Shown here: piece after piece, positions 1,821-25,455 of the stretch | Position numbering within the stretch: the stretch's first letter is position 1 | How the letters are laid out: every line of letters starts with the position of its first letter | Source of the DNA: Acetobacteraceae bacterium | Lineage (GTDB): Bacteria; Pseudomonadota; Alphaproteobacteria; Acetobacterales; Acetobacteraceae | NCBI GenBank assembly: GCA_031291725.1 | Contig: JARLIM010000040.1 | Coordinates: forward strand, 15,071-79,070 | Direction: 5' to 3' | Length of the DNA: 64,000 nt | Notes under the pieces: generated by a model | What the model was told of the DNA's origin: nothing | Database searches by the model: none | The model's input: only the letters and a program-made list of their open reading frames with translations | Translations under genes and position numbers: made by a program

Positions 1821-1869
1821 TTGGTGTAACTGTGCTTACTCATTACCCCAGCCGGGGAATTACACCGAC
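1821..1869 (+). repeat. Core motif copy 1 (att-like)
   Basis: TTGGTGTAACTGTGCTTACTCATTACCCCAGCCGGGGAATTACACCGAC. It shares TTGG(G)TGTAA ... TTACCCCAGCCG ... GAATTACACCGAC with copies at 10166, 18269 and 25378, and lies in a gene-free gap next to xis/int. Confidence 0.6.
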
Positions 1870-1918
1870 CGTCCCCACCCCAGCCTGAAGCGGGCAAATG
1901 CCACAGGCGACGCAACAA

Positions 1919-1946
1919 ACCGCCCTGTCCGGCACGACAGGGCGGT
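1919..1946 (-). terminator. Rho-independent terminator candidate for the polB-int-xis operon
   Basis: Perfect 11-bp stem ACCGCCCTGTC / GACAGGGCGGT with a 6-nt loop. On the minus strand it is followed by TTTGTT, 17 nt downstream of the xis stop. Confidence 0.55.
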
Positions 1947-1962
1947 CCGATCGATATTGCGG

Positions 1963-2217
1963 CTAAGAAGCGGCCCTTGTGCAGAGATGTGCTGCGATGA
2001 AGGCCTCGATGTCGGAACGTCGGTAAAGGATGGCCTTCGCCGTCATCTTGACGAAGGCCGGCCCCTCGCCGGTCGCCCGCCAGCGTTCGAGCCGACGGGT
2101 GTTGACGCGCAGCAATGCGGCGGTCTCCGCCGGGGTGAGCAGCGCGGGCGGATTGGATTCCGCCACAGGCGCGTCGGCGGGGGACGCGGTGTTCTCGATG
2201 TCGTGCGGCGCGGTCAT
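1963..2217 (-). CDS. Excisionase / AlpA-type helix-turn-helix DNA-binding protein
   Basis: 84 aa. LLTPAETAALLRVNTRRLERWRATGEGPAFVKM...YRRSDIEAFI matches the excisionase-family HTH pattern. Its start overlaps the integrase stop (ATGA). Confidence 0.8.
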   Translation of the reverse strand: MTAPHDIENTASPADAPVAESNPPALLTPAETAALLRVNTRRLERWRATGEGPAFVKMTAKAILYRRSDIEAFIAAHLCTRAAS

Positions 2218-22536: not shown

Positions 22537-24012
22537 TTGACCAACTGCGCGCGCGCCGCGCGGGTCTGTGTGCTTCTTGCAGCCTTCGGTCTAGGCGCCT
22601 GCACGACGGTGCCTGACTTTCCGAACGTGCCGCTCGCGGCGGGAGCGGCGAATTCACCGCCAGCGAGCCCAATCGGCACGGATCCAGAGGCGCCATTGAT
22701 CTTGATGGCATTCTCGGGCGGGGGGTCGAGAGCGGCAGCGCTTGGGCTTGGCGTGCTGAATGAATTGGCCACCGCGGCTTACCCGGCGCACGGCAAATCG
22801 GAGTCACTGATCGATCGGGTCAAGGTGGTTTCCTCGGTGTCGGGCGGCAGCGTCGTCGCTGCCTGGTTTGGCTTCGCCGGCCCTGGGCGCCTGAATGAAC
22901 TGAAGGATAATTTCCTCAAACAGGACAACATGGCGACCTTGGAATGGCAGGCAGTAAATCCGCTCACCTTGGCCCGTCTGGCATTCAGCGGCTACACCCG
23001 CATTGATGTAATGCGCGATCTGCTCGATCGCGAGCTCTTCCACGGCGCGCGCTTCGCCGCTCTTCAAAGGCCGGGCGCGCCACTTGTGGTAATGAATGCC
23101 ACCGATATGGAATCGGGAGAGGTCTTCGCCTTCACGCCACAGCGCTTCGACGATCTGTGCTCCGATTTGAATCAGTTGCCGATCTCCGTTGCGGTCTCCG
23201 CATCGGCAGCGTTTCCGGTCGCGTTGTCGCCGATGAGCTTACGCAATTACAGCTACGAAAGCTGCAAAGGTGCTATCCCGTCGCCTGGTTGGATTGACGC
23301 AGGCCTCAGTTTCCCGTTGAACCGCTACATCAACCTCGAGGAATATAAGCGCGCGCGCTATGCGAACGCCCTCCGGAACGGTAACGACGCGTATCGTAAC
23401 GAGCATTATTTGCACCTGCTCGATGGCGGGCTCGCCGACAATCAAGGAGTGCAGTCGCTGAGCGAGGTGCTGGTTTCGCCGCACAGCGCGGCGCATATCA
23501 TCCGCGGCATCAATGCCGGCCACGCGAAGCGCATCGTCGTGATCTCGGTCAACGCACGCTCTGATGCAGACAGGGATATCGGCAAGGAAGCAGCAGTTCC
23601 CGGACTGCTGAAGGTGGTGGATACCGTGATTGGCACACCGATCGATGGCACCACCGCCTATGCTAATGCCAGCCTCCAGGATTTGGTCGCCACCCTGAAG
23701 AGCGCTGGTGAAACAGCACCGCAGGCGCCTGGGCATCCGCTGTTTGCCGGCATGCGGGTCTATGGCGTTGCCATCGATTTTGACCAGTTTATGCCAGAGC
23801 AGCACAACTTGCAGAATGTTGTGAAGAACATCGGCACGACCTGGACGCTCTCGGCCGCACAGCTACAGGCGGCGATCGATGCCGGGAAGATCCTGCTGCG
23901 CCAGCATCCTTGTTACCAGCGGCTTCTACTCGACCTGAAGGCCCGGCCTGCTGCAGGCGATGAGGCCACAATCCGTAAAGGCTGTCCGTTCGCGGGGGAC
24001 GACCCTTCCTAA
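22537..24012 (+). CDS. Patatin-like phospholipase, predicted lipoprotein
   Basis: TTG start. Signal/lipobox VCVLLAAFGLGAC. Oxyanion motif FSGGGSRAA, nucleophile elbow GVSGGS region (SSVSGGSVV), and catalytic Asp motif LLDGGLADNQG. Confidence 0.85.
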   Translation: MTNCARAARVCVLLAAFGLGACTTVPDFPNVPLAAGAANSPPASPIGTDPEAPLILMAFSGGGSRAAALGLGVLNELATAAYPAHGKSESLIDRVKVVSSVSGGSVVAAWFGFAGPGRLNELKDNFLKQDNMATLEWQAVNPLTLARLAFSGYTRIDVMRDLLDRELFHGARFAALQRPGAPLVVMNATDMESGEVFAFTPQRFDDLCSDLNQLPISVAVSASAAFPVALSPMSLRNYSYESCKGAIPSPGWIDAGLSFPLNRYINLEEYKRARYANALRNGNDAYRNEHYLHLLDGGLADNQGVQSLSEVLVSPHSAAHIIRGINAGHAKRIVVISVNARSDADRDIGKEAAVPGLLKVVDTVIGTPIDGTTAYANASLQDLVATLKSAGETAPQAPGHPLFAGMRVYGVAIDFDQFMPEQHNLQNVVKNIGTTWTLSAAQLQAAIDAGKILLRQHPCYQRLLLDLKARPAAGDEATIRKGCPFAGDDPS

Positions 24013-24371
24013 TCCAAGCATCCCTAGGCAGCAGTTCAACAATGACGCCAACCGGCTTACCGCCATTCCTAGTTGCCGGCACATCAAATGTCGACCATCA
24101 AACAACAGACAGAGCACAATTCAGAATTGATACACGTGGTTTGTCGCAGGGTTCTGATGCCGATCGACGCCTTGTGTCTTTGAACTAAAACGAGGCAGAA
24201 TGGTCACTATGCGGTGTATATTCACACCTTGGGTGGATCGGTGTGGATAAGCGCCCAAGCAGGGTCCGGGATATTTTACGAATCAACTGTATATCGCCCT
24301 GATCGGCACCGCGCTACTCGCCGATTCATATGCCGGGGCCATCAGCCCGGCCGTCCCGTGTCCATTCATCG

Positions 24372-25061
24372 TTAAGATGCAAGATGTGATGCTATTCCCC
24401 AGGCTTTCTGCAGAAGTGCCCCTTCGGCCAAGCGCTGGTCCGGTAACTTGCCGAGATCTGAGTAGGGATGGCTCGTCGGCAGAATGCAAAGGGGCTTTTC
24501 TTCGAAACTGACCTGCTCTTCCTGCCCAACGTGCAACTTCGGCAGACGTAACAAATCACCCAACAACCCCGCCGGACGGCTGCCAAGCACCACGATCAGA
24601 CGGGGCAGCAGGGTGCGGATTTGGAACGCGAGGTACTCGGCGCAGAGAGAATTATAGCTTGGGTTATTCATTGGGTGCGCCAAAGCCGAACGATCGCTGC
24701 GCAGTCCCAAGTAGGCATTTGTGTAGAATCCAAGGTGCCCGGGGATTTCTGCGTGCTTGAGGCGCTGCCGTAGCCACCGCCAAGTTGGTGGATTTTCATG
24801 CAGTCTCAGTCTCTGAAAGCCTGCTAGACTACCAAAATCATTGCCAAGAAACATTATTTCACCAGAGGGAAATGCAAAGGGGCTTGGCTGCCGCAACGCC
24901 AACTGATTATCGTCCCGCCACAGGCCATCCCCACCTGGGAAAAAGCCCTGACCAGTCAGCGTGCGCGGGAACGGTTCGAGGCCTTCGGGATAAGCTCGAC
25001 CGCCAAATCGGCCTTCTGCCTCGAGGGTGGTGAGGCGGCTAAGCAAGATGCCTATAGACAT
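24372..25061 (-). CDS. Uracil-DNA glycosylase superfamily-like protein (divergent)
   Basis: The order of motifs matches the UDG fold: IMFLGNDFGS (position of GEaPG motif A), FYTNAYLGLR, C..YL..QI..LLPRLIVVLG, and TSHPYS (HPS-type motif B). Confidence 0.55.
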   Translation of the reverse strand: MSIGILLSRLTTLEAEGRFGGRAYPEGLEPFPRTLTGQGFFPGGDGLWRDDNQLALRQPSPFAFPSGEIMFLGNDFGSLAGFQRLRLHENPPTWRWLRQRLKHAEIPGHLGFYTNAYLGLRSDRSALAHPMNNPSYNSLCAEYLAFQIRTLLPRLIVVLGSRPAGLLGDLLRLPKLHVGQEEQVSFEEKPLCILPTSHPYSDLGKLPDQRLAEGALLQKAWGIASHLAS

Positions 25062-25146
25062 ATGTCCAGTTCACTTTCGTATCGGCGGCTTAGGTTGGAT
25101 GTCAGGGGTCATGTATTGTGAACGTATCACACTGCGAAAACTCCGC

Positions 25147-25455
25147 TTACGGCATCCTCGCCAGCGGCACTGGCCTCTCCACTGTAATGACGCGGCCACG
25201 GTGGCGGGGAGCGTCAATTTCGCGAAGTTGCCGAAGATTGCGGCATCGGGCGGGGATGGCAAGGACCAGCGCGGCGGGGAGGCGTCACAAGGTGTGTGTG
25301 CAATGCATCCGATTGGCGAGAGCTGTTCGATTTGTCGCCACGGCGACATTTCTGCGGACTGGGTGGCCATCGGGACGTTGGGTGTAAGCACGCCTATCTA
25401 TTACCCCTGCCGCTGAATTACACCGACGCCTGTGATCGGCCGGGCCGAGCGCGAC
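25147..25455 (+). repeat. 309-bp direct repeat, copy B (contains core motif copy 4 at 25378-25427)
   Basis: Aligns with 18037-18345. Shared landmarks are the palindrome TTCGCGAA, the hairpin TGTCGCCACGGCGACA and the core TTGGGTGTAAGCACGCCTA...GAATTACACCGAC. Confidence 0.85.

What the first reader, a model, noticed from the sequence alone, without database searches (positions are those of the whole stretch)
1821..25455. Pipolin-type self-synthesising island carrying a stack of defence genes
Seen: a family-B DNA polymerase gene is translationally linked to a tyrosine integrase and an excisionase. The same element carries a UDG-superfamily gene, a complete type I R-M system, nuclease-like and phospholipase cargo, flanking direct repeats and patchy base composition.

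Established: pipolins are integrative elements defined by a primer-independent PolB (piPolB). They typically carry tyrosine recombinases, Xis, UDG and R-M/defence cargo, and are flanked by direct repeats.

Inference: this is a pipolin in a GC-rich proteobacterium with an unusually modular layout.
Basis: partly seen in the sequence, partly recalled or inferred. Interest (0 to 1): 0.7.

Follow-up and report, generated by a model that had tools for sequence, protein, structure and literature searches.

The report
Pipolin with tandem att-bounded cargo modules
This is a mobile island in an Acetobacteraceae chromosome that encodes its own piPolB-type DNA polymerase, integrase and excisionase, followed by two integrase-less gene blocks fenced by copies of the same attachment site; it is a known kind of element (a pipolin defence island) with an unusually clear modular build.

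Summary
On the minus strand, a 1004-aa family-B polymerase gene (3538-6552) overlaps a P4-type tyrosine integrase gene (2214-3545) by 8 nt. The integrase gene overlaps an HTH_17 excisionase gene (1963-2217) by 4 nt.

The polymerase is piPolB-type:
- It has the SxTTDG PolC motif, the invariant KH and intact exonuclease and polymerase motifs.
- Its clade profile scores 243 bits against the pSE-12228-03 piPolB, 36 against Bam35 and 4 against phi29.
- Its fold is phi29-like.
- Its whole clade has AVRT where piPolBs have KTRG.

The direct repeat occurs four times, not twice: 1796-1869, 10142-10215, 18245-18318 and 25354-25427. No tRNA or Rfam RNA overlaps any copy. The copies cut the region into three modules:
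- A (8.3 kb): the polymerase-integrase-excisionase core.
- B: a complete type I R-M operon.
- C: T5orf172, patatin and a divergent UDG.

Only A has a recombinase. Metagenomic relatives (about 88% identity) join the modules differently.

My best reading is a minimal pipolin plus two CIME-like cargo islands, accreted by site-specific recombination upstream of a DUF2269 gene. Pipolin defence islands and tandem accretion are already published (NAR 2024), so this is a new variant of a known kind. Mobility and primer-independent synthesis are inferred, not shown.

The parts
1796..1869 (+). att copy 1. It is the left boundary and lies 94 nt downstream of xis. Core: GGTGTAA-N13-TTACCCCAGCCGGGGAATTACACC.
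   Evidence: Homology with metagenomic relatives L009/L010 continues 166 nt further left, to 1630.
1963..2217 (-). Excisionase-like gene (84 aa, HTH_17/AlpA type). Its ATG overlaps the int stop codon (ATGA).
   Evidence: The same gene follows int in L001, L004 and L005.
2214..3545 (-). Tyrosine integrase (443 aa) with an arm-binding domain (P4/SXT-like architecture).
   Evidence: Pfam Arm-DNA-bind_3 E 6e-19 and Phage_integrase E 4e-24. The ATG at 3545 overlaps the PolB end by 8 nt. It is 33% identical to the integrase next to the Pseudosulfitobacter plasmid piPolB.
3538..6552 (-). piPolB-type family-B DNA polymerase (1004 aa from ATG 6552; the ORF extends to 6609).
6572..6603 (-). 14-bp-stem hairpin followed by a T-rich tail, between the 158-aa gene and PolB. 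Terminator- or attenuator-like.
6619..7095 (-). Conserved small protein (158 aa) directly upstream of PolB. Function unknown.
   Evidence: Homologues sit at the same position in L001, L004 and L007. No Pfam or PHROG hit.
7211..8323 (-). 370-aa protein, first gene of the PolB operon. It evolves fast and its function is unknown.
   Evidence: A promoter-like site and a 16-bp-stem palindrome lie upstream at 8393-8442.
8466..9908 (+). 480-aa orphan protein, divergently transcribed. It is conserved next to the PolB operon in relatives. GC is 54%.
   Evidence: Homologues occur in L001 (split by IS66) and L004. The family has 31 representative clusters. The AF2 model has pLDDT 76 and no PDB fold match.
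10027..10215 (+). Arm with hairpin TGTCGCCGCGGCGACA, plus att copy 2 (10142-10215).
   Evidence: This arm, core and ygjP are conserved as one unit in L007, but with a different left neighbour.
10299..18022 (-). Module B cargo: the operon hsdM (15632-18022), hsdS (14511-15635), orf149 (14065-14514), hsdR (11015-14062) and ygjP (10299-11018). Gene ends overlap or nearly abut.
18037..18318 (+). Arm with hairpin, plus att copy 3 (18245-18318). It is 90% identical over about 283 nt to the arm and att copy 4.
   Evidence: (D6, D7).
18495..19115 (+). T5orf172/MUG113 (GIY-YIG-like) protein; module C.
   Evidence: Weak PADLOC PDC-S57 hit.
19376..21729 (.). Small ORFs of module C. None that was searched has a family match: 19776-20291(+), whose 3' 137 aa are the gene called 19878-20291; 20491-21198(-); 21295-21729(+). 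The 174-aa gene called at 19376-19900(+) was not searched.
22696..24012 (+). Patatin-like phospholipase (438 aa as called in the metagenome; the ORF extends to 22333).
24372..25061 (-). Divergent UDG-superfamily protein, nearest to family 4/UdgX. It has GNDFG in place of the GEAPG motif.
25147..25427 (+). Arm with hairpin, plus att copy 4 (25354-25427). It is the right boundary.
25571..26038 (+). DUF2269 membrane-protein gene: the conserved right flank of the att site, not part of the element.
   Evidence: The same att-DUF2269 junction follows the PolB module directly in L007.
1..1379 (+). Left flank: HEC-04 AAA ATPase, cut by the window start (489 aa in L005/L031). It lies outside the att array.
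   Evidence: PADLOC E 1.7e-157..

Best explanation
The region is a tandem array built by site-specific recombination at one attachment site. That site lies about 145 nt upstream of a DUF2269 gene in an Acetobacteraceae chromosome.

Module A (att1 to att2, 8.3 kb) is a minimal pipolin. It is one operon encoding a 370-aa protein, a 158-aa protein, a piPolB-type polymerase, a P4-type integrase and an excisionase, plus a divergent 480-aa gene.

Modules B (type I R-M) and C (T5orf172, patatin, UDG-like) are att-flanked islands without a recombinase, i.e. CIME-like units.

Inferred mechanism:
- Int, with Xis for excision, recombines any two att copies. Module A alone, A plus cargo, or single cargo modules could then excise as circles and reintegrate.
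- The polymerase would replicate the excised circle.
- The cargo protects the host against phages and foreign DNA.

Shown here: gene content, polymerase family, four att copies, and different module joints in relatives. Inferred: recombination activity, circular intermediates, primer-independent synthesis and defence phenotypes.
For: Polymerase family:
- PolC motif SATTDG, KH motif and Exo I-III, A and B motifs all align with piPolBs, and not with the YCDTDS of phi29/Bam35.
- The clade profile scores 243 bits against the pSE-12228-03 piPolB, 36 against Bam35 and 3.6 against phi29.
- tblastn hits the Pseudosulfitobacter plasmid PolB, and that genus is named as a host of plasmid pipolins in PMC11551731.
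- A 57%-identical relative is annotated 'putative primer-independent DNA polymerase PolB'.
- The AF2 model (pLDDT 83) is closest to phi29 polymerase (TM 0.65), ahead of RNA-primed PolBs at about 0.33.

Core operon:
- The PolB-int-xis order is conserved in five other loci.
- The gene overlaps were read directly in the sequence.

att sites:
- There are four co-oriented copies where 0 are expected by chance.
- Copy 1 lies 94 nt from xis.
- Half of the core (TTACCCCAGCCnnnGAATTACACC) is conserved at the equivalent position of a pipolin whose PolB is only 61% identical.
- Copies 2-4 each carry the same arm hairpin. Arms 3 and 4 are 90% identical over about 210 nt, although their cargo is unrelated.

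Modularity:
- Only module A has int and xis.
- GC differs by module.
- In L007 (88% identity) the PolB module is followed by att plus DUF2269 rather than by module B. Module B's att, arm and ygjP unit has another left neighbour there.
- The P0006 genome has the core next to rsmB/proC, with no B or C module.

Precedent: tandem accretion of pipolins and three-att pipolins are reported (PMC11551731, PMC7385651). The CIME concept is described in PMC5704250.
Against: - No empty attB, circular junction or alternative arrangement was found among contigs more than 99% identical to the window. All show the same integrated order.
- The L007 joint is not a clean att-to-att swap. A truncated DUF2269 fragment abuts the arm of att2, so illegitimate rearrangement also contributes.
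- Homology with L009/L010 runs 166 nt beyond att1, so the exact left end is uncertain.
- Only one att copy lies within 10 kb of the related core in L004.
- The K of KTRG is Ala in all 24 clade members. In E. coli piPolB, the K623A change impaired primer extension and primer synthesis (PMC5695915).
- Modules B and C could be former cargo of larger elements rather than independently acquired units.
Confidence: 0.65

Rival explanations
1. This is one 23.6-kb pipolin that moves only as a whole, by att1 x att4 recombination. The inner att copies are inert relics or duplicated arm sequences inside a single element.
For: - All near-identical metagenome contigs keep the A-B-C order.
- Pipolin length is typically about 20 kb, and R-M and UDG are typical pipolin cargo (PMC11551731, PMC5695915).
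- att1 and att4 are as similar to each other (52/74) as att1 is to att2.
Against: - The inner copies keep the full core, including all three TTACNCC-type 7-mers, and the arm hairpin.
- A relative has the PolB module directly beside att-DUF2269, without B or C.
- Another relative has no B or C within 10 kb.
Confidence: 0.2
2. This is a decayed, immobile island. The polymerase-integrase-excisionase genes are remnants or have been co-opted (for example for damage tolerance or defence), and the repeats only record past insertions.
For: - The KTRG motif is replaced by AVRT.
- No excision products were seen.
- Relatives show truncated integrases beside att (L015, L016, L004).
- A terminator-like hairpin precedes PolB.
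Against: - All ORFs of the core are intact and overlap as in a functional operon.
- The catalytic residues are conserved across 24 clade members at 52-99% identity.
- The element occurs in different genomic contexts.
Confidence: 0.1
3. The repeats are not recombination sites. They are a dispersed regulatory or terminator-type intergenic repeat of this genome that happens to lie between gene blocks.
For: - Each repeat lies in an intergenic gap.
- Copies 2-4 include a hairpin, and at copy 3 the hairpin is followed by a T-run.
- The same hairpin occurs once without the core, left of the window.
Against: - There are only four copies in 64 kb, all in one orientation and all within the island. There are none in the 30 kb of ordinary chromosome to the right.
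- There are no copies in 10 kb to the left.
- One copy lies beside xis-int.
- The core is conserved next to a distant pipolin.
- No Rfam family matches.
Confidence: 0.05

Closest known systems
Pipolins (piPolB-encoding integrative elements; type example E. coli 3-373-03_S1_C2; Redrejo-Rodriguez 2017, Mateo-Caceres & Redrejo-Rodriguez 2024)
   Same: - piPolB-type polymerase with the TTDG and KH motifs.
- Tyrosine integrase, excisionase and att-like direct repeats.
- R-M, UDG and other defence cargo.
- Total size of about 20 kb.
- Tandem arrangement at one att site.
   Different: - No tRNA or tmRNA gene lies at the att site; the target is intergenic, upstream of a DUF2269 gene.
- PolB, int and xis form one overlapping operon.
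- There are four att copies, and the cargo sits in integrase-less modules.
- The KTRG motif is AVRT in the whole clade.
- The DUF2787 and WYL core genes of gammaproteobacterial pipolins were not seen.
Alphaproteobacterial pipolins described in PMC11551731 (LSR/yifB type; IntP2 or IntTn916 variants; Pseudosulfitobacter plasmid pipolins)
   Same: - Same host class.
- The PolB is homologous to the Pseudosulfitobacter plasmid PolB (33% identity over 179 aa).
- That plasmid's adjacent integrase is 33% identical to this one.
   Different: - No serine recombinase and no yifB target.
- The integrase has the Arm-DNA-bind_3 (P4/SXT-like) architecture.
- The element is chromosomal rather than plasmid-borne.
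CIME/ICE tandem accretion (ICESt1-type; Pavlovic 2004, Bellanger 2011, reviewed in PMC5704250)
   Same: att-flanked units without integration genes sit in tandem with an element that encodes the integrase. This allows cis-mobilisation and gene capture.
   Different: - No conjugation genes anywhere in the array.
- The helper is a polymerase-encoding pipolin.
- The modules carry defence operons.
- Nothing here has been tested experimentally.
Protein-primed PolB elements (phi29, Bam35, casposons, polintons, linear plasmids)
   Same: Family-B polymerase whose predicted fold is closest to phi29 polymerase.
   Different: - The PolC motif is TTDG, not DTDS.
- No terminal inverted repeats.
- No Cas1 or terminal-protein gene was recognised.
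- No PHROG polymerase family hit.
- Much lower profile scores.
Integrons
   Same: An array of co-oriented recombination sites separates promoter-less-looking cargo units beside a tyrosine recombinase.
   Different: - The units are 7-8 kb multi-gene blocks.
- The sites lack the attC structure.
- The integrase is P4-type, with an arm-binding domain and an excisionase; it is not an IntI.

Membership tests
piPolB (primer-independent PolB) | PolC motif SxTTDG, with the first catalytic Asp replaced by Thr | tested here: met
   SATTDG at aa 665 of the 1023-aa ORF. All 31 relatives that cover the motif have xxTTDG, whereas phi29 and Bam35 have YCDTDS. The motif definition is from PMC5695915.
piPolB (primer-independent PolB) | Extended KH-X8-KTRG motif replacing KxY | tested here: not met
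   KH and the X8 spacing are present, but the tetrad is AVRT, so only the Arg is kept. This holds in all 24 clade members (one of them has AVRA). The nearest outgroups have KTRG, RTRG or TTRG.
piPolB (primer-independent PolB) | Intact 3'-5' exonuclease (Exo I-III) and polymerase motifs A and B | tested here: met
   DAEW, HFxxxD, YAFEDAE, DYDLPGAYT and KEVGNSAYG align with the reference motifs.
piPolB (primer-independent PolB) | Closer to piPolBs than to protein-primed or RNA-primed PolBs | tested here: met
   Profile scores are 243 bits (pSE-12228-03 piPolB), 178 (Fusobacterium plasmid PolB), 36 (Bam35) and 3.6 (phi29). A full phylogeny was not run.
piPolB (primer-independent PolB) | phi29-like architecture with TPR1/TPR2 subdomains | tested here: inconclusive
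   The model (pLDDT 83) matches phi29 polymerase over nearly its full length (TM 0.65), against about 0.33 for RNA-primed PolBs. The subdomains were not mapped residue by residue.
piPolB (primer-independent PolB) | De novo (primer-independent) DNA synthesis | not testable with these tools
   This needs biochemistry. The AVRT substitution makes it uncertain.
Pipolin | A piPolB gene inside an integrative element with a recombinase and flanking direct repeats | tested here: met
Pipolin | Integration at the 3' end of a tRNA or tmRNA gene (usual, not obligatory) | tested here: not met
   ARAGORN found 0 genes in 64 kb. Rfam found none at the gathering threshold and nothing at the repeats at E up to 5.
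Pipolin | Mobility: different contexts in relatives, excision | tested here: inconclusive
   Relatives carry the core in different contexts and with different joints. No empty site or circle was found.
Type I restriction-modification | HsdR, HsdM and HsdS all present and intact | tested here: met
   HsdR has HSDR_N, SWI2_SNF2 and T1R_D3. HsdM has HsdM_N and N6_Mtase (E 4e-99). HsdS has two Methylase_S stretches.
UDG superfamily | UDG fold and motifs | tested here: met
   The family profile hits type-4 UDG/UdgX structures at E 2e-6, and 28 of 32 homologues hit PF03167. Motif A is GNDFG rather than GEAPG, so the substrate is unknown.
CIME (cis-mobilisable element) | Flanked by att sites and lacking integration and transfer genes | tested here: met
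   Modules B and C lie between att2-att3 and att3-att4, with no recombinase.
CIME (cis-mobilisable element) | Excision in trans by the neighbour's integrase | not testable with these tools
   No junction contigs were found.
Casposon / polinton / linear-plasmid pPolB elements | Terminal inverted repeats; DTDS PolC motif | tested here: not met
   No inverted repeats bound the region. The PolC motif is TTDG.

The most novel reading that the evidence does not exclude
The pipolin integrase and its att site could work as a capture platform for multi-gene defence cassettes. Each 7-8 kb cargo module would carry its own att core plus a conserved arm, and could excise as an integrase-less circle. The minimal polymerase-integrase-excisionase unit would then reinsert or swap it in trans. 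This would be an integron-like exchange system for whole defence operons. It would be run by a piPolB clade whose primer-terminus motif (AVRT for KTRG) may change how, or whether, it primes.
Probability: 0.2. Interest if true: 0.65.

Novelty: new variant of a known kind. Interest (0 to 1): 0.4.

Why it matters
Pipolins were recently proposed as bimodular reservoirs of defence genes that exchange cargo with other elements. How the cargo is swapped is unclear, and most non-gammaproteobacterial pipolins could not be delimited.

This element gives a clean, delimitable alphaproteobacterial example:
- It has a non-tRNA att site.
- It has a minimal 8.3-kb core.
- Its cargo blocks are individually fenced by att copies.

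That makes site-specific cassette exchange directly testable. The clade-wide KTRG-to-AVRT change also offers a natural variant for asking which residues are needed for primer-independent synthesis.

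Tried and rejected
- tRNA, tmRNA or known RNA at the att site: none found. Consensus folding of the four copies gave no convincing structure.
- A fifth att copy at 34333-34356: only a 13-nt match, inside an intact glycosyltransferase gene. Treated as chance.
- More att copies to the left of the window: none within 10 kb (L031). A second P4-type integrase, 50% identical, lies there.
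- Empty attB or other arrays in public genomes:
  - The strict core pattern gave 0 hits in GTDB genomes and 4 metagenome contigs, all relatives of this element.
  - The relaxed pattern hit only two 'uncultured proteobacterium' MAGs, and nothing in IMG/VR.
- Circular or alternative junctions in near-identical contigs: none found. The 7132-nt Logan contig that spans exactly att3-att4 ends in a 23-nt repeat. That fits an assembly break at the 34-nt exact repeat, not a circle.
- Function of the conserved 480-aa, 370-aa and 158-aa proteins: no Pfam, NCBIfam, PADLOC, PHROG or PDB sequence hit.
  - The exhaustive search found a family of 31 clusters for the 480-aa protein. Its AF2 model has no significant fold match, best E 0.08.
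- Promoters in the att3 and att4 arms: none by consensus scan.
- Supplementary tables of PMC11551731, to see whether this clade is already catalogued: not held.

Full report
**What is in the sequence**

On the minus strand a family-B polymerase ORF (3538-6609) matches PF03175 above its cut-off. Metagenome gene calls and a Shine-Dalgarno-free upstream hairpin place its start at ATG 6552, which gives 1004 aa. The ATG of a 443-aa tyrosine integrase (Arm-DNA-bind_3 plus Phage_integrase) lies inside the last PolB codons (ATGGCTAA), with AGGAG upstream. The integrase stop overlaps the ATG of an 84-aa HTH_17 excisionase-type gene as ATGA. The same PolB-int-xis order is found in five independent loci.

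Upstream in the same operon are a 158-aa and a 370-aa protein. A 480-aa gene is transcribed divergently. All three recur next to related polymerases, and none has a recognisable family or fold.

**Is the polymerase a piPolB?**

The founding paper (PMC5695915) gives two sequence signatures. One is SxTTDG in place of YxDTDS in PolC. The other is KH-X8-KTRG in place of KxY.

- The window protein has SATTDG and KH at the right spacing. It also has Exo I-III and motifs A and B.
- A profile of its clade scores 243 bits against the pSE-12228-03 piPolB over almost the whole polymerase. It scores 36 bits against Bam35 and 3.6 against phi29.
- tblastn against plasmids finds the Pseudosulfitobacter plasmid PolB. 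That genus is named as a host of plasmid pipolins in PMC11551731. The integrase next to that gene is 33% identical to this one.
- One relative in Rhodovastum atsumiense is annotated as a putative primer-independent PolB.
- An AlphaFold model (pLDDT 83) is closest to phi29 polymerase (TM 0.65). RNA-primed PolBs score about 0.33. Among viral models, it is closest to protein-primed PolBs. This fits the phi29-like architecture described for piPolBs.
- No PHROG polymerase family matches, and no terminal inverted repeats exist.

There is one deviation. The KTRG tetrad is AVRT in all 24 members of this clade (one of them has AVRA), while the nearest outgroups keep K/R/T-TRG. In E. coli piPolB, K623A impaired primer extension and synthesis beyond the dinucleotide (PMC5695915). 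The enzyme family is therefore established, but primer-independent synthesis is not.

**The repeats**

The flanking repeat is one of four co-oriented copies of a 74-nt sequence, at 1796-1869, 10142-10215, 18245-18318 and 25354-25427. Pairwise identity is 49-66 of 74. The core, GGTGTAA-N13-TTACCCC-N10-TTACACC, is expected zero times in shuffles. No tRNA, tmRNA or Rfam family overlaps any copy.

Copies 2-4 each have the hairpin TGTCGCCnnGGCGACA in the arm to their left. The arms of copies 3 and 4 are 90% identical over about 210 nt, although the genes beside them are unrelated. Half of the core is conserved at the equivalent end of a pipolin whose polymerase is only 61% identical.

**Modules**

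The four copies delimit three units.
- Module A (8.3 kb; 67% GC in the operon) is the polymerase-integrase-excisionase core.
- Module B (8.0 kb; 61% GC) is one operon, hsdM-hsdS-orf149-hsdR-ygjP: a complete type I R-M system.
- Module C (7.0 kb; 58% GC) carries a T5orf172/MUG113 protein, small unannotated ORFs, a patatin-like phospholipase and a UDG-like protein.

The UDG-like protein is weak on its own. A profile of its homologues hits type-4 UDG/UdgX structures at E 2e-6, and 28 of 32 homologues hit PF03167.

Neither B nor C has a recombinase. Defence genes also lie outside the array. A HEC-04 ATPase (E 1.7e-157), with a trypsin-like gene, is on the left. An FRG/PDC-S15 protein and a PIN-HTH pair are on the right.

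**Relatives and mobility**

The host is an Acetobacteraceae MAG. The right half of the window is ordinary chromosome.
- Near-identical contigs from several metagenome samples all show the same order.
- More distant relatives (88-91% identity) differ. In L007 the PolB module lacks the 480-aa gene and is followed by an att copy and the 5' part of DUF2269. Then comes the arm, att2 and ygjP of module B.
- In L009/L010 the left flank diverges 166 nt beyond att1.
- In the P0006 genome the core sits next to rsmB and proC, with no B or C module.
- A second MAG has truncated integrases beside att.

So the region is not a conserved syntenic stretch. The att-DUF2269 joint looks like the native right flank. 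I found no empty site and no circular junction.

**Interpretation**

The best-supported reading is tandem accretion at one att site. A minimal pipolin sits beside two att-flanked, integrase-less islands, which are CIME-like in the sense of PMC5704250. Int and Xis could recombine any pair of att copies. The main rival is a single 23.6-kb element with relic inner sites. Decay or co-option, and a non-recombinational role for the repeats, are less likely.

**Comparison with the literature**

Pipolins as defence islands, their variable integrases, tandem pipolins and pipolin-prophage arrays with three att repeats are all published (PMC11551731, PMC7385651). Four things are different here:
- The att site is intergenic and non-tRNA.
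- A P4-type integrase is fused into the polymerase operon, in an alphaproteobacterium. Published pipolins of that class mostly use serine recombinases at yifB, or IntP2/IntTn916.
- Cargo modules are individually fenced by att copies.
- The KTRG motif is replaced by AVRT across the clade.

I rate it a new variant of a known kind, of moderate interest.

Noticed in passing
window 29947-32295 (-), with 32632-33681 (+), 27202-28803 (-) and 26046-27181 (-): A 782-aa ORF has no Pfam or PHROG hit, but its C-terminus reads like a tyrosine recombinase (HxxR...Y). It sits with a Fic protein, an FRG/PDC-S15 protein and a PIN-HTH_17 pair. The 8.5 kb to the right of att4 therefore looks like yet another mobile or defence block.
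   Followed up: partly
left of the window: L031 10839-17231 (ENA GROS21-1 scaffold_1591): Beyond att1 lie a full 489-aa HEC-04 ATPase, a trypsin-like protease, a 215-aa HTH_17 protein and a second P4-type integrase, 50% identical to the pipolin integrase. No further att copy was found there.
   Followed up: partly
window 6572-6603 (-): A perfect 14-bp-stem hairpin (GCGCCCCCGTGGG...CCCACGGGGGCGC) followed by TTTCGTCTT lies between the 158-aa gene and the PolB start. It may be an attenuator limiting polymerase expression.
   Followed up: no
window 8393-8442: A 16-bp-stem palindrome overlaps a promoter-like site (TTGAGC-18-TATAAT). It lies in the divergent gap between the 370-aa gene and the 480-aa gene, and looks like an operator.
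   Followed up: no
window 4989-5027 and 7636-7730: Compared with the otherwise 99-100% identical metagenome contig L005, the window has a 39-nt (13-aa) in-frame insertion in PolB. It also has a 95-nt versus 11-nt indel, which splits the 370-aa ORF in L005.
   Followed up: partly
L001 6529-9195 (Rhodovastum atsumiense) and L006 1821-7365 (Pseudosulfitobacter plasmid): IS66 insertions interrupt the homologue of the 480-aa gene in Rhodovastum and the piPolB gene itself in the Pseudosulfitobacter plasmid.
   Followed up: no
L001 15587-15882 and 20467-20727: The Rhodovastum pipolin locus has its own direct repeat of about 300 nt (87-95% identical), 4.9 kb apart, beside an integrase fragment. Its sequence is unrelated to the att of this window.
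   Followed up: no
window 39589-46137 (+): A 2182-aa AIDA-type adhesin whose gene has many 57-nt (19-aa) periodic repeats. A PEP-CTERM protein and a glycosyltransferase cluster (34019-39024) lie upstream.
   Followed up: no
window 60241-62553 (-): A 770-aa TPR protein whose gene holds ten tandem 102-nt (34-aa) repeats at 61104-62321.
   Followed up: no
window 34333-34356: A 13-nt exact match to the left part of the att core (GGTGTAAGCACGC) lies inside an intact glycosyltransferase gene. It is probably chance.
   Followed up: partly
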